From the NCBI GenBank assembly GCA_041651035.1, contig JBAZKC010000001.1:387244-451243 (forward strand): 64,000 nt of DNA. The letters are read 5' to 3'. The translations under genes were made by a program, and so were the position numbers. The notes below the pieces were generated by a model. That model was not told the DNA's origin. It did not search any database and worked only from the letters and a program-made list of their open reading frames with translations. Source of the DNA: Candidatus Omnitrophota bacterium. GTDB lineage: Bacteria; Omnitrophota; Gorgyraeia; Gygaellales; Profunditerraquicolaceae. This document shows, in pieces, positions 47,251-64,000 of this stretch; within the stretch, counting starts at the first letter, position 1, and every line of letters starts with the position of its first letter.

Positions 47251-47257
47251 GCCTGTG

Positions 47258-50967: not shown

Positions 50968-51575
50968 TTTGGTTTTGACTTCAGGCAGAAATCCTTGCCC
51001 AGCCTTACTAATAGCGCGTGGTATTCGTTGAATAATTTTACATCGTTTTTGATATTTTGCATAAATAAATTTTGTACCTCTTCATAAGAAGAATCCGCCC
51101 TGATAATCCGATGCCTTAAAAGCACCCTCTTTGTATAGGCATCGACCACGAATACGGGTTTATTAAGACCATAGAGCAGTATAGAATCCGCGGTTTCCGG
51201 GCCTACACCTTTAACAGAAAGCAGTTGTATGCGCAGGGCTAAAGTATCAATTTTAGATATTTTTTTTATGCTCCCCTTATAAACCCTGAATAAAAACGCG
51301 GCGAATTCCTTAAGCCGCCCCGCCTTAATATTATAATAGCCGGACGGCCTTATAAACGAGGCTAACCTTTTAGGGGACAGCTTATAAAGCGCCTGCGGAG
51401 ATAATAATTTATTTCTTTTAAGATTGCCTACCGCTTTTTCAACGTTACCCCAATTCGTATTCTGGGTAAGGATAGCTCCCACCATGACCTCAAACGGGCT
51501 ATCAGCCGGCCACCAATGCTGCGGGCCGAAATAGAAATAAAGTTTTTGATAAATTAAACCGAGCTTTCTTTTCAA
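50928..51575 (-). CDS. endonuclease III-like HhH-GPD base-excision DNA glycosylase with 4Fe-4S loop
   Basis: 215 aa. ILTQNTNW, helix-hairpin-helix VKGVGPETADSIL, VDAYTKRVL and C-terminal CLKSKPKCGICPL...C cluster. Confidence 0.7.
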   Translation of the reverse strand: MKRKLGLIYQKLYFYFGPQHWWPADSPFEVMVGAILTQNTNWGNVEKAVGNLKRNKLLSPQALYKLSPKRLASFIRPSGYYNIKAGRLKEFAAFLFRVYKGSIKKISKIDTLALRIQLLSVKGVGPETADSILLYGLNKPVFVVDAYTKRVLLRHRIIRADSSYEEVQNLFMQNIKNDVKLFNEYHALLVRLGKDFCLKSKPKCGICPLGSLREC

Positions 51576-53524
51576 TCTCTAAGTTCCAAAGGGTTATAGT
51601 TATAGTAGGCGAAGAGCGTGTAAGTAGTGCCTGCTACCGAACCGGTGGATTTGCCCTTAGGAGTAGACCATCCGTGGCCGGTGTCCGCGGAATCCTGGGT
51701 TGCGTAAGGAAGACAGCTCTCTCCCTGCCCGGAAGGGGAAGGACTGGATATGATCATGTTGCTTAATTCCGATAGATATTCATCGGCTTTACGGGCATAG
51801 GCGCGGGATTTATCGGGCAGGCTGTCTTTATAATAATCCGCCATTATCTTATACGCCATGACCATCTGGCCTGTCCACTCCGAAGAAACAACGCCGCCTC
51901 TGGCCAAATTCCTTTGGCTGGCAAAATCAAAGCCTCTTACTTTAACAGTCTGCCCTTCCGGCCGGAGAAAGGCAACCTCTACGCTGCAATTCTGTTCGGC
52001 AAATTCTACGATCCTGTCGGGATCCATACCTATTTCTTCCAGTTTACGGGGGCCGACAGCCGCTATTGACCAGGCATAAGTATCAGTGGCAATAGTAGAA
52101 TCCCCTTTGCCGCGCTTAATCGGAAGCTCGGCCTTATCATATGTATACCGGACTAACCAGCTCAATACTTTGTTAGCGGCTTCTTGATAGCAGACCCTGC
52201 CTGTAATTTTATATAACATATTAAAGAAAGAATAAGCATCCAGATTATGTTCTGTGGCATACCATTCTATACCAGGCCCTCCGCGGATACCGCCGTCTTT
52301 GTCCTGGCCCTGTAAATCAATTATAGCCTGGGCGATCTCTTCCGCCAGCCGGACATAACTACTATCCCCGGATTTCTGAGTATACTGCATTATCGCAATA
52401 CCCAGCCAGATATTCGGCCCGCTCTGGACTACGTATTCAGAGGGGCTTCCATCGTTAGCGTAATAGGCGTTATAAAATTGCCTGTCCCGCCTTTTCGCCT
52501 TGGTATTAAAAAAATCAAATATTCTTCTGGCGCGTTGGAAATCAGAAAAAAGAGTATACGCCTGGGCGACCAGCGATTGATCATAAATAAACGCCCAGTT
52601 GGCGATATCGTTGTCTCCTTCAAAACTTATGACCAGGCCTGTGCGCGGATTTTGATGCACCTTTAGCCACTGATACATCTTCTCCACATTAGCCTGCTCT
52701 AAACTTACTTTCTCTTCGCTTAAATTTACGATCTCTTTGACAACTGCGTCTTCTTTGCGTTGGACGACAACCAACTGTTCTTCTAAGGCGGCTTTTGCGA
52801 CACTTAATTCTTTGATCAGCCCGCTTAATTCTTCCATCTTCCTGGACTGTTTGTCTGTTGCCAGCCTTGCGTTTGCCTCTACTTCAGATTTCTCCCTCTC
52901 TATAGTCTGGATACGCGGTTCTAATGCCTTTATCCTTGCTTCCAGATCCTCCCGTTCCTTGCTTATCCGGCCTATCTTCTCTTCGGCAATGCTGGATTCC
53001 TGCACAGTCTTAACCAGCTGCTCTACTAAGGCCCGGTTATCTTTAATTAATTTCGCGTTTATCAAGCTATTAACCGCGATCACTGAACCCAGTATAAAAA
53101 TAATGCTTAAGGCCACCGGGATAAATATTTTTTTGGCCCACACATAGCGCATGATCCTGTTATTCTGGAAATGGTCGATTTTTTCGTAACTTAAGCCGAT
53201 AAGATATTTATTGGGGTTTCCTCCAGGGGCTTGGGCAATCCAGACAATCCTTGCCTTGGCAGGCACGGGCTTCCTGGCCAAAGGCATCTCTATATCTAAA
53301 GATATTTTTGCCTGCCCTTCTTTTAACAACCTGGCTAATTCCGGATTTAGATTATTCACGGAAAGGCAGATCCCGCCGCGGCCGACATCATTAGTAAAAC
53401 CCTGCAGCCAATCTGATAAAAAGTGCTCCCCGTCTATCGCCAACAGGCGGAATTGCACGGGAAAAACAGAATCCAAGCGTACGTATTCACGGCGCTCTTT
53501 TCCGGGGTAATCGTGTCTAGCCAT
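51572..53524 (-). CDS. PilZ-domain protein: PilZ / single TM / long coiled-coil / large C-terminal (alpha/alpha)-barrel-like domain
   Basis: 650 aa. N-terminal PilZ motifs (ERREYVRL = RxxxR; NDVGRGGICL = D/NxSxxG), TM helix (IFIPVALSIIFILGSVIAV), about 150 aa heptad-rich segment, then about 350 aa Trp/Tyr-rich domain. Confidence 0.6.
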   Translation of the reverse strand: MARHDYPGKERREYVRLDSVFPVQFRLLAIDGEHFLSDWLQGFTNDVGRGGICLSVNNLNPELARLLKEGQAKISLDIEMPLARKPVPAKARIVWIAQAPGGNPNKYLIGLSYEKIDHFQNNRIMRYVWAKKIFIPVALSIIFILGSVIAVNSLINAKLIKDNRALVEQLVKTVQESSIAEEKIGRISKEREDLEARIKALEPRIQTIEREKSEVEANARLATDKQSRKMEELSGLIKELSVAKAALEEQLVVVQRKEDAVVKEIVNLSEEKVSLEQANVEKMYQWLKVHQNPRTGLVISFEGDNDIANWAFIYDQSLVAQAYTLFSDFQRARRIFDFFNTKAKRRDRQFYNAYYANDGSPSEYVVQSGPNIWLGIAIMQYTQKSGDSSYVRLAEEIAQAIIDLQGQDKDGGIRGGPGIEWYATEHNLDAYSFFNMLYKITGRVCYQEAANKVLSWLVRYTYDKAELPIKRGKGDSTIATDTYAWSIAAVGPRKLEEIGMDPDRIVEFAEQNCSVEVAFLRPEGQTVKVRGFDFASQRNLARGGVVSSEWTGQMVMAYKIMADYYKDSLPDKSRAYARKADEYLSELSNMIISSPSPSGQGESCLPYATQDSADTGHGWSTPKGKSTGSVAGTTYTLFAYYNYNPLELRD

Positions 53525-53527
53525 AAG

Positions 53528-55936
53528 CTATTTTATCTTTTCTGCAACTATCCTTTGTTTGATCTTCTTGGCCAGCCCCTCAAAGAAATATTTAAAATCG
53601 GGGTACTCGGCCCGGGAAATTATATTCTTCTTTAACTCCACTTTTTGCCTGAAGTATATTTTATTATTTTTATATTTATATTCAACCATGAATTTTAACC
53701 AGGGGCTTTCTTCGCTTACGCTGTCAGGTAAATATTTTATGGCCAGGCAAGAGGGCATTTCGATCTCCAATATTGTCTCTTTAATATCCAAAACGCCGAA
53801 ATCAAGGTCATACTTACGCTTATCCTTGGCTACTAAAGACGCGTCAAGGAAAGCTAATTGCGGCGGTATCCTTAAACTACCCGCTGAAGTAAAATATTCA
53901 GCCCCCTGGAAATCGTAATCCAGCGCGATAGGCGCGTTAAGGTTATCTAAATTCTGGATATTGTATTTATTGAGCTTGGCGCCAATAGAGACATCCTGTA
54001 TCTTTTCTTTCAGCATCTCCTGTATTAATTCCGGTTGTGTATACAGCAGCCAATAACGCTGTGCCTGGTCATAGAAACCAAAGGTAAAAATTGTTTTCTG
54101 CGCGGATATGGTCTCATTATTGTTTATTTTTATCCGCAGAGACTGTTTGATCAGGTTATGTTCAGCCGGGTACATAGGGGTATCTTCTATTTTAAACCCG
54201 CTTTCCCGGAATATCAACACCTTACGTCCTTGGTCGTCGCGCGGCAGATCCTTAAAAGAACAGGTTTGCGCGGTAGGGTCAAGAAAAATTATTTTATCTT
54301 CCAGGGACACGGCCGCGATACAATGGTTGAAAAGCACCGCGGGAAAATCTTCGTTTAAATTATAGTATTCCTTTGTGGCGATAAGGACGGGCCAGGCAGA
54401 AAAGCCGGCTTCTTTTAACATAGTAACCAGGAGTATCGCCTGGTCTTTGCAGTCTCCGTACTTATTCTTAAATATATCTTCCGCGCTATGCGGCTGATAG
54501 CCGGCCTTACCGTATTCTACGGCCACATAACGGATCCTTTGCGCGCAAAAATTATAAACCGCCCTTAGCTTCTGTTCTCTGGAAGCCGCATTCCTGGTCA
54601 ACTCTCTTACTTTGTTTTTTATCGCCTCATCCGCCTTTATCTTATCTTTGGCGAGCGCCCACCACCAATCATAGATATCCTGCCAATTATTAAACGTGGA
54701 TATAAGCAACGTGGGGTTTATCTGGACATCCGGGGGCATATTGGACTCCGGAACTATCTGGGGTATGTCTTTAAAGTGCCAATGATATACCAGGTTGCCA
54801 TCCCTCTCTTCGGTAAGAGGTCCCAGCTTTGCCCCGAAATCATTGTATTCATCGTTGATTACCTTGATATTCAACGGCAGGTTTTTGGGCGTGGCAATGC
54901 TAAAATGCGCCGCGATAATCGGTTCATGGGATTGCACGGCATAACTTAAGACAAAATCCTTTTTATTGATAAGTTGGTTATTATATACCTTTAGTTTATA
55001 ATCTATAACCGCGCCCTCAGTAATCTCCGGGAAAGATATTATGTAAACGCGCACATTGCTATAGAGCGGGAAGTTTAAATATTTGGACACGTCGCGTATA
55101 TGGCGCCTGCCCACATCTGTTACTGTGCCGTCGGGCTTTATTATCCTGGCGTATTCTAATTCCACTTTCTCAAAGGTAGAGTCATATTCTATGCGGGTCT
55201 CTGAAAAATCTTCTTTACCTCGCTCATTTAAAATCTTGACTATATAATGCAGCAAGGAAACCTGGGTGCCCTGGGAGCTTACTTCGATATTTTCGTCACA
55301 GGATAAAATAAGCGCTCCGGCCTGAGGATATTCTTTAGCCGCGGGTGCGCCGGCTAAGATATCATAAACTTTCCCGTCTATGTCTTTTATGCGCAGGCGG
55401 TTAGCTTGTTTCTCGATCATGCCTACGCGGGCGAGCGCTTTTGGCTTAAACGCTTTATGGGTAATTTTTTTATAAGCTCCCAGCGCCTGGTCAAATAAAT
55501 TTAATTGTTCGCAGGTTAACCCATGATAGTATAAATATTCGTCATCGGGCATATCCTCTTTGTCGAAGGTCTCTAAGGCGTCGGTAAAATTCCCCAGACG
55601 ATAATAAGAGATGGCCATAAACTTATTTGCCGGGCTAAGCCTGGACTCTTTAAATTCCGCGACCGCTTGTTTAAATTCTCCATGGCTGTAATATAACTGG
55701 CCAAGCTCAAGATGCAGCTTGTCTAAATCTTTGCCGGCGGCGATCAATGCTCTGTAGGCCTTAACCGCGTCTCGATAATAACCTTTAGACTTACTGACAG
55801 CCTCCTGCGCCTGTTTTAAATCTTTATTTTGGCCGCAACCGGAGGATAGGACAAAAAATAGGATAGCCAAAGGCAAGATCATGATCCGAGATTTAAAATA
55901 TGGCTTTGCGTTACGGCCTTTTATAATAGCGCGCAT
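53528..55936 (-). CDS. lipoprotein with N-terminal TPR-like repeats, DUF3857-like region and transglutaminase-like cysteine-protease core
   Basis: 802 aa. Lipobox LSSGC, TPR-like helical repeats in the first ~180 aa, transglutaminase-core motif YGDCKDQAILLVTMLKEAGF (Cys nucleophile). Confidence 0.6.
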   Translation of the reverse strand: MRAIIKGRNAKPYFKSRIMILPLAILFFVLSSGCGQNKDLKQAQEAVSKSKGYYRDAVKAYRALIAAGKDLDKLHLELGQLYYSHGEFKQAVAEFKESRLSPANKFMAISYYRLGNFTDALETFDKEDMPDDEYLYYHGLTCEQLNLFDQALGAYKKITHKAFKPKALARVGMIEKQANRLRIKDIDGKVYDILAGAPAAKEYPQAGALILSCDENIEVSSQGTQVSLLHYIVKILNERGKEDFSETRIEYDSTFEKVELEYARIIKPDGTVTDVGRRHIRDVSKYLNFPLYSNVRVYIISFPEITEGAVIDYKLKVYNNQLINKKDFVLSYAVQSHEPIIAAHFSIATPKNLPLNIKVINDEYNDFGAKLGPLTEERDGNLVYHWHFKDIPQIVPESNMPPDVQINPTLLISTFNNWQDIYDWWWALAKDKIKADEAIKNKVRELTRNAASREQKLRAVYNFCAQRIRYVAVEYGKAGYQPHSAEDIFKNKYGDCKDQAILLVTMLKEAGFSAWPVLIATKEYYNLNEDFPAVLFNHCIAAVSLEDKIIFLDPTAQTCSFKDLPRDDQGRKVLIFRESGFKIEDTPMYPAEHNLIKQSLRIKINNNETISAQKTIFTFGFYDQAQRYWLLYTQPELIQEMLKEKIQDVSIGAKLNKYNIQNLDNLNAPIALDYDFQGAEYFTSAGSLRIPPQLAFLDASLVAKDKRKYDLDFGVLDIKETILEIEMPSCLAIKYLPDSVSEESPWLKFMVEYKYKNNKIYFRQKVELKKNIISRAEYPDFKYFFEGLAKKIKQRIVAEKIK

Positions 55937-55949
55937 TGTGGGCTCCTTC

Positions 55950-56795
55950 TTAAGCCTTTTTCTTCAAGATACGGTTATACTCTCTTATAAAAAACCTGGT
56001 TAGCTTAAAACTACCCGCGCCTCCTGCTATCCGGCGCTTTCCTACGCAGGCAAGCGGCATGACTCCTATCAAAGAATTAGTCAAGAATGCCTCATCCGCT
56101 TTATATAAATCCCCTAGAGTTAAATTAGCCTCATAATTTTTTATATTATGCTTCTCTGCTAAATCAAATACGGCTTTTCGGGTGATGCCGGCTAAGCAGC
56201 CGCTGGATAAAGAAGGACCAAAGACCGCATTATTTTTTATTAGGAATATATTGCTCCTGGAAGCTTCGCTGAGATAGCCGCGGCTGTTTAGAATAATAGC
56301 TTCATCAAAGCCGTTTTTTTTGGCCTTCTCGTAAGCTAAATTGTACAGCATATAGCTTGTTGTCTTTATGCGCGGGGAGAAACAACCCTCGTTTTGGCAA
56401 AATCCAGAAACGCCGGCCTTAAATCCAACTTTATACTTTAAACGGGAGCAAGGATTGTATTTTTTAACTGTTACCAGGACGCCTGTGCCTTTTTCCGCCC
56501 TCCATGCTGTTAATCTTATATAAGAGTCTTTAAAATTATTTATTTTAACCGTCCTGTTGACGGTATCTTCTAACTTAAGCAGGGAATAAGGCAACTTTAT
56601 ATTAACTAACCTTAAGGATCCGGCCATCCTCCTAAGGTGCTGGTGGAAATAGGCTATACTGTTATTATACGAACGCATGGTCTCAAAGACCCCGGCACCC
56701 AGCAAGAACCCCGGGTCAGATACGGGAACATTCGCTTCTTTCGCGGGCAGAAACCTGCCGTTTAGGAAAACGATTTCTTCTCTATTATAGCGCAT
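55950..56795 (-). CDS. pabC: class IV aminotransferase-fold protein, probable aminodeoxychorismate lyase
   Basis: 281 aa with fold-type IV PLP enzyme blocks (FETMRSYNN, RLTAWRAEKGTG, GITRKAVFDLAE). Overlaps the pabB-like gene upstream. Confidence 0.65.
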   Translation of the reverse strand: MRYNREEIVFLNGRFLPAKEANVPVSDPGFLLGAGVFETMRSYNNSIAYFHQHLRRMAGSLRLVNIKLPYSLLKLEDTVNRTVKINNFKDSYIRLTAWRAEKGTGVLVTVKKYNPCSRLKYKVGFKAGVSGFCQNEGCFSPRIKTTSYMLYNLAYEKAKKNGFDEAIILNSRGYLSEASRSNIFLIKNNAVFGPSLSSGCLAGITRKAVFDLAEKHNIKNYEANLTLGDLYKADEAFLTNSLIGVMPLACVGKRRIAGGAGSFKLTRFFIREYNRILKKKA

Positions 56796-58158
56796 TTACC
56801 GCCCCCAGCATTGCTTTTGCTTTTACCAGCGTCTCTTTGTATTCCTCTTGCGGGTTTGAATCCGTGACAATGCCTCCGCCTGCGTTAAAATAAAGTTTAT
56901 CATCTTTTTTTAATATCGTGCGGATTAAAATATTAAAATCCGCCCCCCCGGAAAAACTTAAATAGCCAAGGCTCCCGGTGTAAACCGAGCGCCTTACAGG
57001 CTCCAGCTCTTCAATGATCTCCATGGACCGGATCTTAGGGCAGCCTGTAATTGAGCCTCCGGGGAAACAGGCAGACAATAGATCGATCCTGTCTTTATCC
57101 TGATGCAGGCGCCCGGATACGGTGGCTGTAGTTTGATAAACAGTATTATACTCCTCCAGGTCCCTTAAGGCATCCACCTTTATGGAATCATAGCTGCAGA
57201 CCCTGCCTAAGTCGTTCCTCTCTAAGTCAACGATCATCATAAGCTCCGCGGCATCTTTTGCGCTCTTTAATAACTCAGTCTTGAGCTCCCGGTCTTTTAT
57301 CCTGTTTTGGGAACGCGGCCGTGTGCCCTTCATGGGACGGGTAGTTACTATACCGCCATTTAGATTTAAGAACCTTTCCGGAGAAGAACTTAAGATCTGA
57401 AAATTCTGGCAATCAAGGTAAGCGCTAAAATAAGACGGGCTGATCTGGCGCAGGCGCTTGTAAATCTCGAAAGCAGATAAGCCCGTTACCGCTTTAAATC
57501 TCTGCGAAATATTCACCTGATAAATATCGCCGTTTCTAATATACCCCTTGGCTTTGTTTACTGCCGAAATATATTCTTCGCGCGTAAAATCAGACTCCGG
57601 CTTTGCGGGGAGATCTTTAAGCTTACCTTTCTTATTAACGGTTTTATAAAAATCTACCCTGGAGAGCAGTTTGTGTATTTTCTTCAAGTTGGTTTTACAA
57701 AGAGCTTTTGCTAAATGATAACTTTTTTCGGGAAAGCCTGCCGCGCATATATAAAGCGCCTTTTTTATATTATCGAAGATGACCACCGTATTATAGAACC
57801 CAAAAAAACAATCCGGGGTGCCTAAATCATCCGCGGTAACCTTCCGAAGTTTCTTTTCCAAGAGGAAACCTAAGTCATAGGCGAGATAGCCTACAGCCCC
57901 GCCTAAAAACGGAAGGCTGCCGGCGGGAGCGGGGATCTTGTATTTTTCTAATAACTCTCTTATTTTACCTAATGGATTTTTGTTTTTTGCCTCTAAAATA
58001 TGGAAAGGGGCTATACCCAAAAAAGAGAACCTGCCTAAAGAATGATTGGCAGTAAGGCTGCTGTCTAAGAAAAAACAATTCCTTTCGTTCTTCAGGGCTG
58101 TAAAGGCCTCAAAGGGGCTGATTTTTAATTTATACGAGTTCAATATGTAATATGCCAT
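56785..58158 (-). CDS. pabB: aminodeoxychorismate synthase component I (chorismate-binding, TrpE/PabB family)
   Basis: 457 aa. C-terminal chorismate-binding blocks YTGSLGYLSFSGGADFNILIRT and GGGIVTDSNPQEEYKET. Adjacent class-IV lyase plus folE/folC in the window suggest folate (PABA) context rather than Trp. Confidence 0.7.
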   Translation of the reverse strand: MAYYILNSYKLKISPFEAFTALKNERNCFFLDSSLTANHSLGRFSFLGIAPFHILEAKNKNPLGKIRELLEKYKIPAPAGSLPFLGGAVGYLAYDLGFLLEKKLRKVTADDLGTPDCFFGFYNTVVIFDNIKKALYICAAGFPEKSYHLAKALCKTNLKKIHKLLSRVDFYKTVNKKGKLKDLPAKPESDFTREEYISAVNKAKGYIRNGDIYQVNISQRFKAVTGLSAFEIYKRLRQISPSYFSAYLDCQNFQILSSSPERFLNLNGGIVTTRPMKGTRPRSQNRIKDRELKTELLKSAKDAAELMMIVDLERNDLGRVCSYDSIKVDALRDLEEYNTVYQTTATVSGRLHQDKDRIDLLSACFPGGSITGCPKIRSMEIIEELEPVRRSVYTGSLGYLSFSGGADFNILIRTILKKDDKLYFNAGGGIVTDSNPQEEYKETLVKAKAMLGAVNAL

Positions 58159-58951
58159 CTATATTAAAGATACGTTCATCATTTCTTAAAGAACAAAATC
58201 CTATTAAGTAGCTGCGGCCGTTCTCCTGTTTGATCTGGCGTGGCAGTATTTCTCTCTGGGTAACTTCAAATCCGGAAGAAGAGAGATATTTTATTTTTAA
58301 TTTCGCGCCCAAGCCGATCGCTTCCTGTATACGGGCAAGCTTTTGAGCATTCATATTATTTAAAAAGTCGGGATTAATGGCAAAGATATTTGAGAAATGC
58401 GTAAAATCCAGGATGCCTTTTGCCTCCAGCGTTTCTCTTAGTTTATTAAAGACCTCCCAGGTAAGTTCCACATCGGAAAACGCGCGGTGCGCCTGTTGGA
58501 TTTTAAATCCCAGCCTTTCTGCTACAAACCAAAGCGCGTAGCGCTCTAACCCCGGCAGAAGGCGCCGGGCCATTTTTAATATATCCACGACTATGATGCC
58601 TTCTAGCTTGCCCCGGCCGAGAAGTTTTAATTCATTATTCAAGAATTCCAAGTCAAACCCCGCGTTATAGGAGCAAAGACAGCTGCCCTGGATAAAGGTT
58701 AGGAATCCGGGCATTACTGTTTCAATACCCGGGGCATCTTTAAGCATATCCTGGGTAATCTTGTTTACCTTAAAAGCGGCTTCAGACACCGGCCTTAAGG
58801 GATTGACCAGAGTTTGGAATGCGGCTATTCTTTGCCCATCCTTGAATCTAATGCCCGCGATTTCTATTATCCTGTCGCCTGAGGCAGGCTCAAGGCCGGT
58901 TGTTTCAGTATCAAAGATAGTAAATTCCACCTCATCCATATTTTTATTCAT
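58130..58951 (-). CDS. DEDDh 3'-5' exonuclease (DnaQ/epsilon-like) fused to a C-terminal WYL-like domain
   Basis: 273 aa. Exo I FTIFDTETTGLEP, Exo II YNAGFDLEFL, Exo III HRAFSDVELT. C-terminal ~80 aa RSYLIGFCSLRNDERIFNIDGI resembles the WYL core. Confidence 0.6.
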   Translation of the reverse strand: MNKNMDEVEFTIFDTETTGLEPASGDRIIEIAGIRFKDGQRIAAFQTLVNPLRPVSEAAFKVNKITQDMLKDAPGIETVMPGFLTFIQGSCLCSYNAGFDLEFLNNELKLLGRGKLEGIIVVDILKMARRLLPGLERYALWFVAERLGFKIQQAHRAFSDVELTWEVFNKLRETLEAKGILDFTHFSNIFAINPDFLNNMNAQKLARIQEAIGLGAKLKIKYLSSSGFEVTQREILPRQIKQENGRSYLIGFCSLRNDERIFNIDGILHIELV

Positions 58952-59843
58952 CTTTTTTCTTGGCGATATACGCCGGGACCAACTTTACAGGATGATAAGA
59001 AAGCTTTACCTTTTTAAGATTCTCCAGCCCGGAATCATCCATGATATTTATATATTTATAATCTTTTAATTCCTGGCAAAAAGAACGGAATATAAACTGT
59101 GCCAGGCCCTTAACGGAGAGGTCCGCGACTTCATATAATACGCAGAAGGTATCGGGGTTTAATTCATAGCCAAAAGTAAATGCTTTTAAGTTTTGGCCTA
59201 TCTTTACCAGGCGCCCCGTAATATCCAGCTTCCGGTAATTTTTAAGCAAGGCCGCCAGGCATATTGCCGCGTCATCAAGCATACCGCAAGACAACGGGTC
59301 CGGATTGTTGGCCTTGCGCTTGCCTCTCCAGCAATCATATAACTTAAAACAATCCTCCTTATGCCTTAAGGAGAATGGCAAATATTCGAATTTATTATGC
59401 TTTATAAAATAATTAAAAGAAGAACGCTTTGATTTAAACCTGTTGCCTCCTAAATCAGTTAAATCTTCCCTCCCGCAGAGATAATCGTAAGATTTAATCC
59501 GGCAGTCAAGGCCCAGTCCCTGATAAAAAGAAATATCTTCCTCTTCAATATTTTCTATGCGCGATATCTCTTTGTTCCGGTTAAAGCTGTCCATGATCTT
59601 GAAAACCTCCTCTACAGCTCCCGGGCCTTTATTACTGCCTAACGGCGGAAGATACAGGAAACAGCCGATCTTATCCCTAAAGAATACGCACAGGCTGTCT
59701 TCTATCACTACCCAGCGGATATCAAATAGCTCTTTCCAGATAAAAATATTCTCAAAGGCATAGACAGCTAACCCGCGGGAACTCGCGCCCAGGAAACGGT
59801 TAAATAGTCTTTTATCTTTAAGGCTGATCTTAGTAAGTCGCAC
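58944..59843 (-). CDS. hypothetical protein, possibly DUF2156 / MprF-C-terminal-like (tandem-GNAT, aminoacyl-tRNA transferase fold)
   Basis: 299 aa soluble. Size and N-terminal pattern (KISLKDKRLFNRFL...YAFENIFIW) recall standalone DUF2156 proteins. Tentative. Confidence 0.3.
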   Translation of the reverse strand: MRLTKISLKDKRLFNRFLGASSRGLAVYAFENIFIWKELFDIRWVVIEDSLCVFFRDKIGCFLYLPPLGSNKGPGAVEEVFKIMDSFNRNKEISRIENIEEEDISFYQGLGLDCRIKSYDYLCGREDLTDLGGNRFKSKRSSFNYFIKHNKFEYLPFSLRHKEDCFKLYDCWRGKRKANNPDPLSCGMLDDAAICLAALLKNYRKLDITGRLVKIGQNLKAFTFGYELNPDTFCVLYEVADLSVKGLAQFIFRSFCQELKDYKYINIMDDSGLENLKKVKLSYHPVKLVPAYIAKKKDE

Positions 59844-59846
59844 CGA

Positions 59847-60338
59847 TTAGATCTCTAATTCTAAGATGTCCTGGACATCTTCGTATGCCTGCGTTATTTG
59901 CGGGTTGTTTTTAAGCATGGTTAACTGCTGTTTTGAATTAAGGTGGGCGGTCAAATAATTTATATACTCATCCATTTCCGGGGTGGACATCTTTTCATTC
60001 ACGTACGGGCAATTCAAGTCCACGGTCAAAAGCACTTTTCCGTTACACAATTTAATCAAGAATGGATAAAGCTGGCATTCAAACGGCCGCGAATCATAAA
60101 CCTTGCAGCAATTATCCGCGCTATTCAGGAATGGGCAGATAAAGCCTTCTCCCGCGGAGTTAGGTATGAGTTGCAGCCTGCGGTCAACGGAAATCGAAGC
60201 AGCCGGTATATTTTTATCTAAGAAATCCTGGACCTCCTCATCCAAAAGGCACGGGCTCCAGACAGAATCTTCTTCTTTAAACCGGCAGCAACCCTGGCAT
60301 TTAAGGCAGGCCCGGGAAGGTACAAATTGCTTGATCAT
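59847..60338 (-). CDS. YkgJ-family Cys-cluster (zinc/iron-chelating, CxxCxxCC) protein
   Basis: 163 aa. ACLKCQGCCRF ... FICPFL...NCCKVYDSRPFECQLYPF, the YkgJ/UPF0153 arrangement. Confidence 0.55.
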   Translation of the reverse strand: MIKQFVPSRACLKCQGCCRFKEEDSVWSPCLLDEEVQDFLDKNIPAASISVDRRLQLIPNSAGEGFICPFLNSADNCCKVYDSRPFECQLYPFLIKLCNGKVLLTVDLNCPYVNEKMSTPEMDEYINYLTAHLNSKQQLTMLKNNPQITQAYEDVQDILELEI

Positions 60339-60655
60339 TTAACAATACTCCCGTTGCGGAGCTTTTTTTCCGGGCTGATAATAACAATGCCGTTTTCGTC
60401 AGACCCGGCCAGGACCATCCCCTGGCTTTCTACTCCGCGCAATACCGCCGTATCCAGATTAGCCACAACCACCACCTGTTTACCTATAAGCGTTTCTTTG
60501 GGATATGAAGTTCTAATCCCTGCCACTACTTGTTTAGTACTATCGCCTAGATCCAGGGTTAATACCAATAGTTTATCGGCATTGGCATGCTCAACAGCAT
60601 CCTTAATCTCGGCGACCCTGAATTCCAATTTCCTGAAATCGTCAATTGTAGCCAT
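60335..60655 (-). CDS. tRNA-binding domain protein (CsaA / Trbp111 / MetRS-C-terminal-like OB fold)
   Basis: 106 aa. FRKLEFRVAEIKDAVEHANADKLLVLTLDLGD...QVVAGI...LIGKQVVVVANL matches the EMAP/CsaA tRNA-binding fold. Confidence 0.65.
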   Translation of the reverse strand: MATIDDFRKLEFRVAEIKDAVEHANADKLLVLTLDLGDSTKQVVAGIRTSYPKETLIGKQVVVVANLDTAVLRGVESQGMVLAGSDENGIVIISPEKKLRNGSIVK

Positions 60656-60668
60656 TAGTTTTCTCCTG

Positions 60669-62177
60669 TTAAAACTTTACTTCCACGGATAATTCTAGCT
60701 GGTAAGCGCAATCCGCCGAACCGTCACCCCTGACATAGGGATTAAACAAGCTCCCTTCGGTATCATCGCGTTTTTCTTTATAATATTTACCCGGGATAAA
60801 ATACCCGCCTAATAAGCCGATAGCCATATGTTCATTGACCTTATAATCAACAAATAAATCCGTCTCATAACCTAATTCCCTGGAGAGGAACCTGGCTTTT
60901 CCGTCTAATGTACCCACCGGACGGGTAAACGCGCTCAAATAATAAGCATAAAAACCAATTTTTAGTTTGGGGCAAAGATCATAATCAAACCCTACGGAAG
61001 GCATAATCAAATTTTCAAAGTCTCCCGAGCTAAATGTTTTCGGCCGGGTCACTCCGTAGTTTAAGCCGTAACCGCCGCCCATAGCCACAATCGGCAGCAT
61101 CTCCACATTGCTTGTGCTTATGGCATCACCTAAGTTTCTGTTACTCGGAGAATAATAGCTGAAAGCCCGGTTCCTGCCTCCGGCATACGTTTCCTCTCCA
61201 TTCTCTACCATCTCTAAGGTAGCCTTATTCCCGGAACAGAGCAGGAACTGCAGCGACGGGTTAAATTTATCCATCGCGTAATCCAGGCCTGAATAGAACA
61301 TGTAACCGGCATGCTGCACATCTTTATATTCGGAAGACGCGCTTTGGGCATAACCAAAATTATGCGCCGCCTCTAACTTAAAAGAGAATTTACCTTCTTC
61401 TATCACCCAGGCAGTGCCAAGGGTCCCCAGGAAATCTCTTTTTATCGGCGCGGTAAGAAGGCTATCGCGTTTGCCCGGAGAAGTATAATCTGCCAACACC
61501 CCGACATACGGCCAGAGAGTTTGATTCCCTAAATTTATTTTTGCATCCGTAGCGAAAAAATTTGCCGCGTTAGGCTCGTACTTTTGCCCCTCCTCCTGTT
61601 CCTGAGGGATCTTGGGGCCTAAATGGTTCTTGTAAACCAGGTCCGGCCGGCAATAATAAAACCTCCAAACCATCTTTTCGGATTCCCGGTATAAGGTCAG
61701 GCCGTAATTCTCATAACCGCCATTTAAACTAAACCCATTGCCGACTTCATAAATATAGAGCCCTGCCTTAACCCTGAATTTATCAAAGAACGCGGAATCC
61801 GCCCAGAATTCCTCAACTTGCGGTAAAAGCTGGCTGCCGTGATATTTTTCTATCCCGCCTACGGAACTAGCGGAAGAATTAAAAATAGCCACCGGCGCGC
61901 TGTAATCATAAGGCCCGTTTCTTTCAAGTTTAAGGTAAAGCCGGGGGCCTTGATTCTTGGGATCCGCGCTAAAGGATAAACTATAGTCTACCCCCAGATA
62001 ATTCGCGCGGTCAGCTTTATTGCTATTGTCTAAACCTGTTACATTCCTAAAGTTTATAAAATCCGTGCGTAAATAGGTACTTACTCCTATAAGATAATTA
62101 TCGGTTCCCAGAAGGTTGTAACCATATGCGGGAACAAGAAATAAGATAAAAAGGCAGCTAAGCCACAGCTTATTCAA
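60669..62177 (-). CDS. putative outer-membrane beta-barrel protein (signal peptide, C-terminal Phe)
   Basis: 502 aa. Signal peptide MNKLWLSCLFILFLVPAYG, Gly/Tyr-rich alternating strands, terminal ...VEVKF. Confidence 0.4.
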   Translation of the reverse strand: MNKLWLSCLFILFLVPAYGYNLLGTDNYLIGVSTYLRTDFINFRNVTGLDNSNKADRANYLGVDYSLSFSADPKNQGPRLYLKLERNGPYDYSAPVAIFNSSASSVGGIEKYHGSQLLPQVEEFWADSAFFDKFRVKAGLYIYEVGNGFSLNGGYENYGLTLYRESEKMVWRFYYCRPDLVYKNHLGPKIPQEQEEGQKYEPNAANFFATDAKINLGNQTLWPYVGVLADYTSPGKRDSLLTAPIKRDFLGTLGTAWVIEEGKFSFKLEAAHNFGYAQSASSEYKDVQHAGYMFYSGLDYAMDKFNPSLQFLLCSGNKATLEMVENGEETYAGGRNRAFSYYSPSNRNLGDAISTSNVEMLPIVAMGGGYGLNYGVTRPKTFSSGDFENLIMPSVGFDYDLCPKLKIGFYAYYLSAFTRPVGTLDGKARFLSRELGYETDLFVDYKVNEHMAIGLLGGYFIPGKYYKEKRDDTEGSLFNPYVRGDGSADCAYQLELSVEVKF

Positions 62178-62255: not shown

Positions 62256-64000
62256 CTAGGCTTCTTTTTTCTTCTTTTCTTCAATCAGTTTCTGGGCGAT
62301 CTCCTGGGGCACCTGAAGATATTTGGAGAATTCCATGGTGGCGTTGGCGCGGCCGCTGGAAAGAGAGCGGAAAGCCGTAGCATAACCGAACATCTCAGCC
62401 AGCGGGACCTCAGCGGAGATTATTTTTTGTTTGCCTTTCGGTTCAGCGTTCAATATTTTCCCGCGGCGCGAACATATATAGCCTATACAGGCGTTGGCAT
62501 ATTCTTCGATCGTAGAGACCTCCAAAGACATATACGGTTCTAATAATATGGGTTTTGCTTTCAGGAAAGCTTCTTTAAACCCGAATATCCCGGCCATTTT
62601 AAAGGCCAGTTCCGAAGAATCTACATCGTGGAACGAACCGTCGTATAGTTCTACTTTTACGTCTACAACAGGATAGCCGACATAAACACCCCTTTCCATG
62701 GCCTCAATTACCCCTTTTTCAATCGCTGGAATAAACGAACGGGGGATCGCGCCTCCTTTTATACTATCAATAAATTCAAATCCTTCTCCGGAGTTGGCGG
62801 GGGACAATTTTAATAAAACATGCCCGTATTGGCCGCGGCCGCCGGACTGCTTTATATATTTGCCTTCGCCCTCGGCTTTATCCAGTATGGTTTCCCGATA
62901 CGCCACTTTGGGCTGGCCCACGATCGCCTCAACCCCGAATTCTTCTTTCAGCCTGTCTACGATTATTTCCAGATGCAGCTCACCCATTCCAGTGAGCACC
63001 ACTTCTTTGGTTTCCTCATCGCTATGCACTAAAAACGTGGGGTCTTCCTCAGTCAATTTAGCCAAGCCCTTACCGAGCTTATCCTGATCCGAGCGGCTTT
63101 TAGGAGCGATGCTTAAGGATACAACCGGTGTCGGGAACTGTATCGCCTCTAAAAGAACTGGATTATCCGGATCGCAAAGCGTGTCTCCAGTAACGGTATT
63201 AGCCAGGCCCGCGACCGCCACGATATCCCCGGCAAAAGCATAATCTATATTTTCCCTCTGGTTGGCGTGCATCTGCACGATACGAGAGACCCTTTCTTTT
63301 TTATTTTTTGTGGAATTCAAGACATATATCCCGGTATCCAGAATTCCGGAATAAACCCGCACATAAACGATCTTGCCCATATGCGGGTCAGCCTGCACCT
63401 TAAAAGCCAGCCCCGAAAACGGTTCGTTAAAATCCGGATGGCGCGGAATTTTCTTATCCTTATCTTCAATATCATGCCCCTCTACAGCCGGCAGATCTAA
63501 AGGCGAAGGCAGATATAAAGTTACCGCGTCAAGCAGGTTCTGCACGCCCTTGTTCTTAAATGCCGCTCCGCATAAAACCGGGACAGCTTTATTGGCAATA
63601 GTGCCGATACGTAAAGCCTTCTTTAATTCTTCGGCGGAGATCTCTTTTTCTCCGGAATCAATATACTTTTTCAACAACGTTTCATCAAAAGCAGCTATCT
63701 TTTCCACCATAATATGGCGGAACTCTTTGGCTTTTTCCAGATACTCCTGCGGGATTTCTTCAACGCGTGTTTGTTTTCCCTGCGACTCTTCTTCATAATA
63801 ACAGGCCTTCATTTCCAGAAGATCAATTACCCCGAGAAAATTATCTTCCGCGCCTATAGGGATCTCCAGCGGCACGGGGTTGCCGCTTAAGTCCACTTCA
63901 ATACCCTTTAATACTCCATAGAAATCCGCTCCGGTACGGTCCATCTTATTTATAAAAGCGATCTTGGGGACATTATATTTATCGGATTGGTGCCAGACAG
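62256..64000 (-). CDS. fusA: elongation factor G (canonical), 5' end beyond window
   Basis: Domains II-V of EF-G with high-conservation blocks (VYSGILDTGIYVLNSTKNKKERVSRI, GMGELHLEIIVDRL, GGRGQYGHV, loop VAYRETI). The ORF's first Met (MDRTGADFYGV) is the internal IMDRIGANF position of EF-G, so the gene continues past 64000. Confidence 0.85.
   Translation of the reverse strand, partial: VWHQSDKYNVPKIAFINKMDRTGADFYGVLKGIEVDLSGNPVPLEIPIGAEDNFLGVIDLLEMKACYYEEESQGKQTRVEEIPQEYLEKAKEFRHIMVEKIAAFDETLLKKYIDSGEKEISAEELKKALRIGTIANKAVPVLCGAAFKNKGVQNLLDAVTLYLPSPLDLPAVEGHDIEDKDKKIPRHPDFNEPFSGLAFKVQADPHMGKIVYVRVYSGILDTGIYVLNSTKNKKERVSRIVQMHANQRENIDYAFAGDIVAVAGLANTVTGDTLCDPDNPVLLEAIQFPTPVVSLSIAPKSRSDQDKLGKGLAKLTEEDPTFLVHSDEETKEVVLTGMGELHLEIIVDRLKEEFGVEAIVGQPKVAYRETILDKAEGEGKYIKQSGGRGQYGHVLLKLSPANSGEGFEFIDSIKGGAIPRSFIPAIEKGVIEAMERGVYVGYPVVDVKVELYDGSFHDVDSSELAFKMAGIFGFKEAFLKAKPILLEPYMSLEVSTIEEYANACIGYICSRRGKILNAEPKGKQKIISAEVPLAEMFGYATAFRSLSSGRANATMEFSKYLQVPQEIAQKLIEEKKKKEA

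What the first reader, a model, noticed from the sequence alone, without database searches (positions are those of the whole stretch)
58130..60655. Overlapping four-gene operon: DEDDh exonuclease::WYL-like fusion, DUF2156-like protein, YkgJ Cys-cluster protein, CsaA-like tRNA-binding protein
Seen in sequence: four genes with 4-8 bp overlaps or gaps. The first has all three DEDDh exonuclease motifs and a C-terminal tail with WYL-like hallmarks (SYLIGFCSLRNDERIFNIDGI). The second resembles standalone MprF-C-terminal/DUF2156 tandem-GNAT proteins, a family that uses aminoacyl-tRNA as acyl donor. The fourth is an OB-fold tRNA-binding domain. Established knowledge: WYL domains are ligand (often nucleic-acid or nucleotide) sensors that regulate defence systems (CRISPR, BREX via BrxR/CapW). 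Inference: a ligand-gated exonuclease coupled to tRNA-binding and aminoacyl-transferase-like components could be a tRNA-directed stress or defence module, or an aminoacyl-tRNA-dependent modification system. This combination is not a described system.
Basis: partly seen in the sequence, partly recalled or inferred. Interest (0 to 1): 0.55.

Follow-up and report, generated by a model that had tools for sequence, protein, structure and literature searches.

The report
Conserved Omnitrophota tRNA-binding/DUF2156/exonuclease-WYL gene cluster
Four tightly packed genes (a tRNA-binding protein, a cysteine-rich metal protein, an aminoacyl-tRNA-transferase-like protein and a DNA-type exonuclease fused to a WYL domain) form a real gene cluster kept intact across Omnitrophota bacteria, but it looks like housekeeping rather than anti-phage defence, and the exonuclease family occurs on its own in other phyla.

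Summary
The four minus-strand ORFs at 58130-60655 hit PF01588 tRNA_bind, PF03692 CxxCxxCC, PF09924 LPG_synthase_C/DUF2156 and PF00929 RNase_T plus PF13280 WYL, all above Pfam cut-offs. The order tRNA_bind-YkgJ-DUF2156-Exo is unbroken at every observable junction in 16 related loci (11/11, 12/12, 16/16), while both flanks vary. All these loci appear to be Omnitrophota.

- Overlaps are the rule in this window (median gap 3 bp, 53 of 54 genes on one strand).
- The neighbours are housekeeping genes, and there is no defence or mobile context.
- The ~275-aa Exo-WYL architecture is widespread (Chloroflexi, Thermodesulfobacteriota, Dadabacteria). In ten loci from eight sequence clusters outside Omnitrophota it never sits next to the other three genes.
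- WYL-less positional orthologues exist.
- The exo domain resembles DnaQ/PolC proofreading nucleases most closely. The WYL domain resembles the ssDNA-binding WYL of Pif1 helicases and keeps their arginine positions.

Best reading: a lineage-specific housekeeping operon. A soluble DUF2156 aminoacyl-tRNA transferase with a Trbp111/MetRS-beta-like tRNA-binding helper is plausible but untested. The exonuclease is probably an independent ssDNA-directed enzyme. A defence role is not supported.

The parts
60335..60655 (-). Free-standing tRNA-binding OB-fold protein (106 aa), Trbp111 / MetRS C-terminal-domain type
   Evidence: PF01588 3.7e-27. TIGR00399 metG_C_term 117.4 vs cut-off 116.65; CsaA model well below its cut-off. 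PDB 1MKH, 1PYB, 8VTZ at about 1e-23.
59847..60338 (-). YkgJ-family Cys-rich Zn/Fe-binding protein (163 aa)
   Evidence: PF03692 CxxCxxCC 9.5e-08, 33.1 vs 23 bits. No solved relative by sequence. Always lies between tRNA_bind and DUF2156 in related loci.
60285..60308 (-). CxxCxxCC motif (C11, C14, C17, C18) of the YkgJ-like protein
   Evidence: Read directly from the translation (CLKCQGCC). A second Cys cluster, CPFLNSADNCCKVYDSRPFEC, lies downstream.
58944..59843 (-). Free-standing soluble DUF2156 / LPG_synthase_C tandem-GNAT protein (299 aa), 2HQY subfamily
   Evidence: PF09924 2.7e-26, full length. PDB 2HQY 2.3e-29. AF2 model pLDDT 77.5. Foldseek: 2HQY TM 0.75, then MprF C-domains, FemX and Sba18/Sbb17 at TM about 0.5-0.55.
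59391..59447 (-). Conserved basic segment GNRFKSKRSSFNYFIKHNK (residues 133-151) between the two GNAT lobes. It occupies the position of the alpha(+) helix that binds aa-tRNA in MprF and ErdS.
   Evidence: K137, R140, N144, F146 and K148 are invariant in 24 orthologues. The segment lies between the lobes in the model. The role of the alpha(+) helix is taken from PMC7334510.
58130..58951 (-). DnaQ-like DEDDh 3'-5' exonuclease fused to a C-terminal WYL domain (273 aa)
   Evidence: AF2 model pLDDT 88.1, pTM 0.82.
58448..58918 (-). Exonuclease domain (residues 12-168) with DEDDh residues D14, E16, D100, H155, D160
   Evidence: PF00929 2.9e-36. Residues invariant. Nearest sequences and structures are PolC exo, DnaQ epsilon, DinG exo and ExoX.
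58139..58342 (-). WYL domain (residues 204-271), a five-stranded beta-barrel in the model
   Evidence: PF13280 2e-12. Strands at 218-272. Best PDB-sequence match is the C-terminal WYL of the Pif1 helicases 8BNV and 8BNS. R233, R256 and R260 align with DdPif1 R464, R491 and R495.
56785..58158 (-). pabB (aminodeoxychorismate synthase component I). It overlaps the exonuclease gene by 29 bp and is a neighbour in 6 of 13 related loci.
   Evidence: PF00425 and PF04715. TIGR00553 pabB 333.3 vs cut-off 328.4. Junction counts.
55950..56795 (-). Class IV aminotransferase, probably pabC. It always follows pabB where pabB is present.
   Evidence: PF01063 1.6e-60. Below all NCBIfam equivalog cut-offs. PabB|PabC junction kept in 5 of 5 loci.
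60669..62177 (-). Porin-like outer-membrane protein gene ending 13 bp upstream of tRNA_bind. It is a variable flank, present upstream in 4 of 8 loci with enough sequence.
   Evidence: Only weak Alginate_exp and DESULF_POR1 hits. Synteny.

Best explanation
This is a lineage-specific, conserved housekeeping operon segment of Omnitrophota, not a defence system. It probably contains two functional units that are co-expressed rather than one machine.

Unit 1 (inferred). The soluble DUF2156 tandem-GNAT protein takes an aminoacyl group from a charged tRNA and transfers it to an unknown acceptor, most likely an envelope lipid or another amine- or hydroxyl-bearing molecule. The upstream Trbp111/MetRS-beta-type OB-fold protein binds the tRNA body and helps recruit the aminoacyl-tRNA. 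It would do in trans what the fused aaRS does in LysX or ErdS. The YkgJ-type Cys-rich metal protein between them is an accessory of unknown chemistry, possibly acting on the product's amine.

Unit 2 (better supported). Exo-WYL is a DnaQ/PolC-type 3'-5' exonuclease acting on DNA. Its C-terminal WYL barrel serves as an accessory single-stranded-nucleic-acid binding or sensing module, as in Pif1 helicases. This would give a repair or proofreading nuclease directed to ssDNA 3' ends.

Shown: domain identities, fold similarities, conserved catalytic and basic residues, conserved gene order within Omnitrophota, and absence of that order elsewhere.
Inferred: all activities, the tRNA-helper role, and co-transcription.
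For: Domain calls are above curated cut-offs.

Gene order:
- Block junctions are kept in 11/11, 12/12 and 16/16 observable loci, whereas Exo|PabB is kept in 6/13 and PabC|TGase in 0/5. The gene upstream of tRNA_bind differs between loci: porin, lipoproteins, pseudopilins, response regulator, V-ATPase.

DUF2156:
- The model matches 2HQY (TM 0.75) and then only aa-tRNA-dependent transferases among characterised proteins.
- A conserved basic inter-lobe segment is present.

tRNA-binding protein: MetRS-C/Trbp111-like.

Exonuclease:
- Best sequence and structure neighbours are PolC exo, DnaQ epsilon, DinG exo and ExoX (about 1e-12). RNA exonucleases score about 1e-8.
- The WYL domain best matches the Pif1 WYL. 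R233, R256 and R260 (plus R263 in most orthologues) sit at predicted ssDNA-contact positions.
- WYL domains of Pif1, DriD, CapW and PafBC bind ssDNA.
- One out-of-phylum Exo-WYL follows leuS-lptE-holA.
- Two WYL-less positional orthologues and one related representative (P0266) end in Q-x-[ST]-L-F, which resembles a beta-clamp-binding motif (the motif consensus is from my own knowledge).

Housekeeping context with no defence or mobile genes.
Against: - No functional data exist for any of the four proteins.
- The link between tRNA_bind, YkgJ and DUF2156 rests only on synteny within one phylum, whose genomes are compact and broadly syntenic here.
- In four out-of-phylum loci, free-standing DUF2156 genes have other neighbours and never PF01588 or PF03692: an Eis-like GNAT in Parabacteroides and Acetoanaerobium, and peptidase M20 plus a Na/Pi transporter in Fusobacterium.
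- The tRNA-binding protein may simply be a detached MetRS beta subunit, or a substitute for the B2 domain missing from the nearby PheT.
- The DUF2156-Exo junction is the most conserved of all (16/16, including WYL-less forms). That argues against the exonuclease being a mere passenger.
- DNA versus RNA specificity of the exonuclease cannot be read from sequence. WYL domains can also bind RNA or c-di-GMP (one search lists a c-di-GMP case).
- The DUF2156 model has only moderate confidence (pLDDT 77.5), and TM-scores to MprF are about 0.5.
Confidence: 0.45

Rival explanations
1. Neighbours only. These are four unrelated housekeeping genes: a detached MetRS-beta or PheT-B2-like tRNA-binding cofactor, an Fe-S/Zn protein, a lipid- or metabolite-modifying GNAT, and a DNA repair exonuclease. 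They stay adjacent because this compact, co-directional genome region is inherited as a block. No shared pathway exists among any of them.
For: - 53 of 54 genes in the window share one strand, with a median gap of 3 bp, so overlaps carry little information.
- Other adjacent pairs of mixed function are equally stable: TGase|PilZ protein 5/5 and PilZ|HhH-GPD 6/7.
- Identities of flanking genes (52-68%) are similar to those of the block, so the sampled genomes may not be very divergent.
- Neither Exo-WYL nor free-standing DUF2156 has these partners outside the phylum.
- The nearby PheT lacks its tRNA_bind domain.
Against: - Both borders of the block have been rearranged repeatedly. There are at least five different upstream and five different downstream neighbours in 12-16 loci, yet no internal junction is ever broken.
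- DUF2156-Exo adjacency survives in much more divergent loci, where DUF2156 is 33-42% and Exo 43-45% identical.
- A tRNA-binding protein close to an aa-tRNA-dependent transferase fold is a functionally sensible pairing.
Confidence: 0.3
2. One tRNA-centred machine that includes the exonuclease. Trbp111-like protein holds the tRNA, DUF2156 uses or edits its aminoacyl group, and the DEDDh-WYL enzyme trims or turns over the tRNA 3' CCA end in an RNase T-like manner, with WYL binding the single-stranded 3' tail. The result would be a tRNA quality-control or stress module.
For: - DUF2156|Exo is the most conserved junction (16/16), with 1-8 bp overlaps or small gaps.
- Two of the four proteins have tRNA-linked folds.
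- DEDDh enzymes include RNase T, which appears among the structural matches at about 1e-8.
- One out-of-phylum Exo-WYL follows CysRS and another follows leuS-lptE-holA.
Against: - The exo domain is clearly closer to DNA proofreading and repair nucleases than to RNase T, Orn or ERI.
- The WYL domain matches ssDNA-binding WYLs and keeps their arginines.
- Some WYL-less positional orthologues end in a clamp-binding-like motif.
- Outside Omnitrophota the Exo-WYL family has no tRNA_bind or DUF2156 partner in ten loci from eight sequence clusters.
Confidence: 0.12
3. An anti-phage or stress defence system in which a WYL sensor gates a nuclease effector, with tRNA-directed accessory proteins.
For: WYL and DEDDh domains both occur in defence contexts. 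PADLOC returns domain-level hits to CRISPR-associated DEDDh and WYL models, PDC-S48 and a DRT WYL model.
Against: - No PADLOC hit for the other three proteins.
- No wHTH domain, so this is not a BrxR/CapW-type regulator.
- In every sampled Omnitrophota locus the genes sit in the same syntenic housekeeping region with 57-79% identity, unlike patchy defence islands.
- No integrases, transposases, restriction-modification genes or other defence genes lie within about 20 kb.
- The WYL domain is dispensable in positional orthologues.
Confidence: 0.04

Closest known systems
DnaQ (Pol III epsilon), PolC exonuclease domain and T. maritima stand-alone PolC-type exonuclease (PDB 2P1J)
   Same: DEDDh catalytic residues and fold. 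These are the best sequence and structure matches: 2P1J 6.2e-27; Foldseek target TM-scores 0.87-0.89 for the DnaQ domains 8H2F, 2GUI and 2IDO.
   Different: The window protein has no Pol III alpha-binding C-terminal tail and no polymerase. It carries a C-terminal WYL barrel instead. All NCBIfam equivalog cut-offs for dnaQ and polC are missed; only the generic TIGR00573 subfamily-domain model is passed.
WYL accessory domain of bacterial Pif1 helicases (TePif1, DdPif1 8BNV, SsPif1 8BNS)
   Same: A C-terminal single WYL domain is appended to a DNA-processing enzyme. It is the best PDB-sequence match for the window WYL (1.1e-07), and the Arg positions implicated in ssDNA binding are conserved (10.1101/163188).
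   Different: The catalytic partner is a 3'-5' exonuclease, not an SF1 helicase. ssDNA binding has not been tested here.
WYL transcription regulators of defence and DNA-damage systems (BrxR/CapW, PafBC, DriD)
   Same: WYL fold. The ligand of these regulators is ssDNA.
   Different: The window protein has no wHTH DNA-binding domain and no WCX domain. It is not adjacent to defence or damage-response regulon genes, and it is an enzyme fusion rather than a regulator.
MprF C-terminal synthase domain and free-standing DUF2156 proteins (B. thetaiotaomicron 2HQY); ErdS and LysX aaRS-DUF2156 fusions
   Same: PF09924 membership, tandem-GNAT fold, and a basic inter-lobe segment. The idea of coupling a tRNA-handling module to the transferase is also shared.
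   Different: There is no membrane or flippase domain and no fused aaRS. Any tRNA-binding module would be a separate Trbp111-like protein two genes upstream. Sequence similarity to MprF is too low for phmmer detection, and only 2HQY is hit. The acceptor and amino acid are unknown.
Trbp111 (Aquifex aeolicus) / MetRS beta subunit / E. coli YgjH; CsaA
   Same: A roughly 110-aa free-standing PF01588 OB-fold. It passes the metG_C_term model.
   Different: It is not CsaA-like: the CsaA models are far below cut-off. Whether it partners MetRS, PheRS (whose beta subunit lacks B2 here) or DUF2156 is unknown.
YkgJ / FliB / DpdM family (PF03692 and the related DUF3109)
   Same: CxxCxxCC plus a second Cys cluster; Pfam hit above cut-off. 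A YkgJ homologue, DpdM, is proposed as a preQ1 methyltransferase. From my own knowledge, FliB is a flagellin lysine N-methylase.
   Different: No evidence of methylase activity here. Sequence similarity is limited to the metal-binding core, and there is no solved relative.

Membership tests
DEDDh (DnaQ-like) 3'-5' exonucleases | Exo I DxE, Exo II D and Exo III H-x4-D catalytic residues | tested here: met
   D14, E16, D100, H155 and D160 are present and invariant in 21 orthologues. PF00929 2.9e-36.
DEDDh (DnaQ-like) 3'-5' exonucleases | RNase H-like exonuclease fold | tested here: met
   AF2 model pLDDT 88. Foldseek TMt 0.87-0.89 to the DnaQ domains 8H2F, 2GUI and 2IDO.
DEDDh (DnaQ-like) 3'-5' exonucleases | 3'-5' exonuclease activity and substrate (DNA vs RNA) | not testable with these tools
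   Only similarity ranking is available: DNA exonucleases rank above RNA exonucleases.
Pol III epsilon subunit (DnaQ proper) | Passes the dnaQ equivalog models; has the C-terminal alpha-binding tail | tested here: not met
   TIGR01406 113.2 vs cut-off 222.7; PRK05711 106.4 vs 196. The C-terminus is a WYL domain.
WYL domain | PF13280 profile match above the gathering score; Sm/SH3-like beta-barrel | tested here: met
   47.3 vs 21.8 bits. Five strands at residues 218-272 in the model.
WYL domain | Conserved basic residues of the ssDNA/ligand site | tested here: met
   R233, R256 and R260 align with DdPif1 R464, R491 and R495. Position 263 is R in more than 90% of orthologues but N in the window protein.
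WYL-regulated defence systems (BrxR/CapW type, CRISPR-associated WYL) | wHTH-WYL-WCX architecture, or adjacency to defence genes | tested here: not met
   No HTH or WCX domain. No defence genes within about 20 kb. PADLOC gives only generic domain hits.
DUF2156 / LPG_synthase_C aminoacyl-tRNA transferases | PF09924 full-length match | tested here: met
   92.8 vs 27.5 bits, profile positions 12-297 of 298.
DUF2156 / LPG_synthase_C aminoacyl-tRNA transferases | Double GNAT fold with a positively charged helix between the lobes | tested here: met
   Foldseek: 2HQY TM 0.75; MprF C-domains, FemX and Sba18 TM 0.5-0.56. Basic segment 133-151 with K137, R140 and K148 invariant. The feature definition is from PMC7334510. 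The model is of low confidence at residues 133-140.
DUF2156 / LPG_synthase_C aminoacyl-tRNA transferases | aa-tRNA-dependent transfer activity | not testable with these tools
   No assay is possible. The nearest solved relative, 2HQY, is itself uncharacterised.
MprF (bifunctional lysyl-PG synthase/flippase) | N-terminal LPG_synthase_TM membrane domain fused to the synthase | tested here: not met
   The 299-aa protein has only PF09924. No PF03706 gene was found in the annotated ~31 kb around the block: window 43040-62177 and L171, about 10 kb on each side of the DUF2156 gene.
Trbp111 / MetRS-beta tRNA-binding proteins | Free-standing PF01588 OB-fold passing the metG_C_term model | tested here: met
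   PF01588 94.7 vs 27. TIGR00399 117.4 vs 116.65, a marginal pass. PDB 1MKH and 1PYB.
CsaA export chaperone | Passes the CsaA subfamily or equivalog models | tested here: not met
   TIGR02222 55.8 vs 119.65; NF007496 52.9 vs 171.
YkgJ / CxxCxxCC (PF03692) | Profile match and CxxCxxCC plus a second Cys cluster | tested here: met
   33.1 vs 23 bits. C11, C14, C17 and C18, then C68, C77, C78 and C88, read from the sequence.
Known anti-phage defence system (any in PADLOC-DB v2) | Multi-gene match to a described system | tested here: not met
   Three of the four proteins have no hit. The exonuclease has only single-domain hits.

The most novel reading that the evidence does not exclude
tRNA_bind-YkgJ-DUF2156 (with or without Exo-WYL) is an undescribed aminoacyl-tRNA-dependent modification pathway of Omnitrophota. 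A free-standing Trbp111-type protein would channel charged tRNA to a soluble DUF2156 transferase. A YkgJ-type metalloprotein would then process the newly added amine, for example by N-methylation, in parallel to the Eis-like N-acetyltransferase that follows free-standing DUF2156 genes in Parabacteroides and Acetoanaerobium. The invariably adjacent DnaQ-WYL nuclease would be functionally tied to this pathway.
Probability: 0.2. Interest if true: 0.6.

Novelty: new variant of a known kind. Interest (0 to 1): 0.36.

Why it matters
Free-standing DUF2156 proteins of the 2HQY type have no known substrate. All characterised members of the fold divert aminoacyl-tRNA from translation to modify lipids, cell-wall precursors or metabolites. 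A conserved pairing with a stand-alone tRNA-binding protein in an uncultured phylum gives a concrete three-gene construct that can be tested for a new aminoacylated product.

Separately, the ~275-aa DnaQ-WYL exonuclease is a broad family (about 100 clusters at 50% identity, found in several phyla). I found no experimental work on it in the literature searched. It would extend the role of WYL from regulator domain to an ssDNA-targeting module of a nuclease. Both points are hypothesis generators rather than surprises, because every component belongs to a known family and the evidence for coupling is synteny within one phylum.

Tried and rejected
1. Defence system: rejected on the PADLOC result, the housekeeping context and the distribution.
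2. Overlaps as evidence of a dedicated operon: rejected, because overlaps are the norm across the window.
3. A promoter or terminator delimiting the four genes: nothing above shuffled expectation. The one 10/12 promoter-like site overlaps the tRNA_bind start codon.
4. Four-gene order outside Omnitrophota:
- None in ten Exo-WYL loci from eight sequence clusters, named members of which are Chloroflexi, Thermodesulfobacteriota and Dadabacteria.
- None in about 145 other DnaQ-family loci fetched, by tblastn with the window proteins.
- None in four free-standing DUF2156 loci from Bacteroidota, Bacillota, Fusobacteriota and Alphaproteobacteria.
5. A general Exo-WYL link to lipid genes: LPG_synthase_TM lies directly upstream in L086 and a PlsC-like acyltransferase in two Chloroflexi loci. 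The other six out-of-phylum loci (five sequence clusters) did not repeat this, so I kept it only as a note.
6. Gene fusion as Rosetta-stone evidence: P0155 fuses YkgJ and DUF2156, but it also carries only 18 residues of tRNA_bind and comes from a single 3.7-kb Logan contig. I treat it as a possible artefact.
7. MetRS in the window, to test the detached-beta-subunit idea: not present in the 64 kb.
8. First metagenome scan with a 19-sequence alignment failed for lack of a conserved stretch.
9. YkgJ against plasmids: one uninformative hit.
10. Literature searches for DUF2156, WYL+DEDDh and YkgJ found no description of this cluster.

Full report
**What is in the sequence**

The region 58130-60655 holds four minus-strand ORFs exactly as described. 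In transcription order they are:
- a 106-aa tRNA_bind protein (60335-60655);
- a 163-aa CxxCxxCC/YkgJ-type protein (59847-60338);
- a 299-aa LPG_synthase_C/DUF2156 protein (58944-59843);
- a 273-aa RNase_T + WYL protein (58130-58951).

All Pfam matches exceed the gathering scores. The DEDDh residues D14, E16, D100, H155 and D160 are invariant among orthologues. The junctions are a 4-bp overlap, a 3-bp in-frame gap and an 8-bp overlap.

Two details need correcting. First, the tRNA-binding protein is of the Trbp111 / MetRS C-terminal-domain type, not the CsaA type. Second, the overlaps are not distinctive. In this 64-kb window 53 of 54 genes lie on the minus strand, the median gap is 3 bp and 40% of junctions overlap. 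The exonuclease gene overlaps the downstream pabB by 29 bp, and the upstream porin-like gene ends 13 bp before tRNA_bind. No convincing promoter or terminator brackets the four genes.

**Organism and surroundings**

Homologues carry Omnitrophota/Omnitrophica names. The public contig (ENA ERZ27247363, 513 kb) reads pheS - pheT - mgsA - a long EF-G-like gene - porin-like - [tRNA_bind - YkgJ - DUF2156 - Exo-WYL] - pabB - pabC-like - transglutaminase/DUF3857 - PilZ protein - HhH-GPD glycosylase - peptidase M20 - PAC2. Glycosyltransferases follow. No integrase, transposase, restriction-modification or other defence gene lies nearby. PADLOC returns only generic DEDDh, WYL and PDC-S48 hits for the exonuclease and nothing for the other three proteins.

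**Is the gene order conserved?**

A scan of GTDB species genomes with an Exo-WYL alignment returned 11 Omnitrophota loci. A metagenome scan added five more. I mapped all window proteins onto these loci with tblastn.
- tRNA_bind|YkgJ is kept in 11 of 11 observable loci, YkgJ|DUF2156 in 12 of 12, and DUF2156|Exo in 16 of 16.
- Exo|PabB is kept in 6 of 13 and PabC|TGase in 0 of 5.
- The gene upstream of tRNA_bind is a porin in only 4 of 8 loci. Elsewhere it is a lipoprotein, a pseudopilin, a response-regulator-like protein or a V-ATPase subunit.

The four genes are therefore a stable core whose two borders have been rearranged repeatedly. At least 18 Exo-WYL and DUF2156 database hits also share identical longest-contig lengths, some only 2-6 kb, which suggests adjacency in many more genomes.

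Two caveats apply. Flanking genes in these loci are about as similar to the window as the block genes are (52-68%), so the sampled genomes may not span the phylum. Other mixed-function pairs nearby are equally stable.

**Divergent relatives**

Three short metagenome contigs (L088, L089, L091) carry DUF2156 (33-42% identity) directly followed by an exonuclease (43-45% identity). In two of them PabB and PabC come next. These exonucleases are 206-214 aa and have no WYL domain. The DUF2156-Exo(-PabBC) arrangement is thus older than the WYL fusion, and the WYL domain is dispensable for whatever keeps the genes together. Two of these proteins, and a related representative (P0266), end in QPSLF, QASLF or QDTLF. 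From my own knowledge this resembles the QL[SD]LF beta-clamp-binding motif. It is a lead towards a DNA replication or repair role, not a demonstration.

**The Exo-WYL family beyond Omnitrophota**

An exhaustive HMMER search of 1.84 billion representatives found 150 clusters at E <= 1e-30. About 100 of them are full-length 255-310-aa Exo-WYL proteins at 30-55% identity. A profile of the distant ones retrieved proteins named from Chloroflexi, Thermodesulfobacteriota and Dadabacteria, all carrying PF00929 + PF13280. I read ten contexts from eight sequence clusters. None has DUF2156, YkgJ or tRNA_bind nearby. The neighbours are:
- hemA-hemC with PTPS and folE;
- a PlsC-like acyltransferase (two Chloroflexi loci);
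- an LPG_synthase_TM gene;
- a nitroreductase;
- CysRS;
- leuS-lptE-holA;
- a HAD hydrolase;
- no same-strand upstream partner (L168): the only upstream gene is unannotated and on the opposite strand, and an MFS transporter lies downstream.

The fusion is therefore neither unique to this genome nor tied to the other three genes.

**What the exonuclease most likely does**

By sequence the exo domain is closest to the PolC exonuclease, a T. maritima stand-alone PolC-type exonuclease (2P1J, 6e-27), DnaQ epsilon, the DinG exonuclease and ExoX. The AlphaFold model (pLDDT 88, pTM 0.82) gives the same ranking: DNA exonucleases score about 1e-12 and RNA exonucleases such as ERI and RNase T about 1e-8.

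The WYL domain's best match among PDB chain sequences is the C-terminal WYL of the Pif1 helicases DdPif1 and SsPif1 (8BNV, 8BNS). The paper describing them confirms the identity of those entries. It lists R464, R491, R495, R498 and R501 as predicted ssDNA contacts, in line with TePif1, DriD and PafBC. In the alignment these correspond to R233, R256, R260, position 263 (R in more than 90% of orthologues, N here) and G266. Experimentally studied WYL domains of Pif1, DriD, CapW and PafBC bind ssDNA.

The simplest reading is a DnaQ-type DNA exonuclease with an accessory ssDNA-binding or sensing barrel. RNA or tRNA substrates cannot be excluded from sequence.

**What the other three genes most likely do**

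The DUF2156 protein hits only 2HQY, an uncharacterised Bacteroides protein, by sequence in the PDB. Its model (pLDDT 77.5) matches 2HQY at TM 0.75. The next matches are MprF C-terminal domains, FemX and the aminoacyl-tRNA-dependent peptide synthases Sba18 and Sbb17 at TM about 0.5-0.56. All characterised neighbours therefore use aminoacyl-tRNA.

A conserved basic segment (residues 133-151; K137, R140 and K148 invariant) lies between the two GNAT lobes. MprF and ErdS have their aa-tRNA-binding alpha(+) helix in that position (PMC7334510). There is no membrane domain.

A free-standing Trbp111-like tRNA binder two genes upstream could supply charged tRNA in trans. This would be analogous to the fused aaRS of ErdS, where the fusion is needed for full activity.

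The YkgJ-like protein has the canonical Cys clusters but no solved relative. A YkgJ homologue, DpdM, has been proposed as a preQ1 methyltransferase.

Free-standing DUF2156 genes in Parabacteroides and Acetoanaerobium are instead followed by an Eis-like GNAT acetyltransferase. In Fusobacterium and Microvirga the neighbours differ again. The specific trio is therefore not seen outside Omnitrophota in this small sample.

A competing mundane role for the tRNA-binding protein is a detached MetRS beta subunit. It could also substitute for the B2 domain, which the nearby PheT lacks.

**Verdict**

The cluster is real, is conserved in Omnitrophota and has not been described as a unit. The defence or 'ligand-gated tRNA-directed nuclease' interpretation is not supported. 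My best explanation (confidence 0.45) has two parts:
- a housekeeping operon segment combining a plausible aminoacyl-tRNA-dependent modification module (Trbp111-like protein, YkgJ, DUF2156);
- an independently acting, ssDNA-directed DnaQ-WYL exonuclease.

The main rival is that the genes are merely stable neighbours (0.30). A single tRNA-centred machine that includes the nuclease (0.12) is kept alive by the unbroken DUF2156-Exo junction. Defence is unlikely (0.04).

Each component is a member of a known family. The DnaQ-WYL architecture and the Trbp111/YkgJ/DUF2156 grouping are uncharacterised variants. Interest is moderate.

**Limits**
- Locus sampling was capped at 600 pattern rows per scan.
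- The taxonomic depth within Omnitrophota is unknown.
- Neighbour detection in unannotated loci relied on tblastn with the window proteins.
- No expression or biochemical data exist.

Noticed in passing
L171:832-2874 (same contig; about 6 kb upstream of tRNA_bind and about 3 kb beyond the 64000 end of the window): The PheRS beta subunit is only 680 aa. It has B3_4, B5, CLM and FDX-ACB domains but no PF01588 tRNA_bind (B2) domain. A free-standing PF01588 protein is encoded about 6 kb downstream on the same strand and might compensate.
   Followed up: partly
window 62256-64000 (cut by the window end; full gene L171:4490-7588) and window 7997-9952: The EF-G-like gene next to the cluster encodes 1032 aa, with an N-terminal extension of about 340 aa before the GTPase domain. 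A second EF-G paralogue (43% identity) lies at 7997-9952.
   Followed up: partly
L088:652-1296, L089:738-1358; protein P0266: WYL-less positional orthologues of the exonuclease (206-214 aa, still between DUF2156 and pabB) end in QPSLF, QASLF or QDTLF, which resembles the bacterial beta-clamp-binding motif.
   Followed up: partly
L086:4949-6828; L081:5321-6831; L084:5255-6864; L169:3828-5849: Outside Omnitrophota, Exo-WYL genes sit directly after an LPG_synthase_TM gene (the membrane half of MprF, 4-bp overlap), after a PlsC-like acyltransferase (two Chloroflexi loci) and after holA (Pol III delta). Six other out-of-phylum loci (five sequence clusters) did not repeat the possible lipid-gene link.
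   Followed up: partly
protein P0155 (498 aa, single 3.7-kb Logan contig): One ORF joins the first 18 residues of the tRNA_bind protein to a complete YkgJ and a complete DUF2156. This is either a real fusion or deletion, or an assembly artefact. In the window, YkgJ and DUF2156 are in the same frame, separated by a stop codon and one further codon.
   Followed up: partly
proteins P0392 and P0429: There are Exo-WYL variants with extra domains: a 457-aa form carrying PTS_EIIA_2 and a 433-aa form with N-terminal TPR repeats.
   Followed up: no
L172:4980-6863 (Parabacteroides distasonis) and L173:4986-7061 (Acetoanaerobium noterae): In two different phyla, free-standing 2HQY-type DUF2156 genes are immediately followed by an Eis-like GNAT acetyltransferase (Acetyltransf_9, with Acetyltransf_17 and SCP2_2 in Acetoanaerobium). 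This may be a conserved two-step pair: aminoacylation followed by N-acylation.
   Followed up: partly
window 1-64000: 53 of 54 ORFs of at least 120 aa are on the minus strand. Coding density is about 97%, the median intergenic distance is 3 bp, and GC skew is persistently negative.
   Followed up: partly
window 58163-58165 (codon for residue 263 of Exo-WYL): The window protein has Asn where more than 90% of orthologues have Arg. That position aligns with a predicted ssDNA-contact arginine (R498) of the DdPif1 WYL domain.
   Followed up: no
L004:10791-13170, L005:3482-5865, L009:13008-15514: In some relatives a HypD-like gene (product beginning MRYVDEFRN...) and a gene of about 363-380 aa are inserted before the transglutaminase gene. 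In L004 and L005 they directly follow Exo-WYL and no pabBC was detected; in L009 they follow pabBC. I did not run family searches on these ORFs.
   Followed up: no
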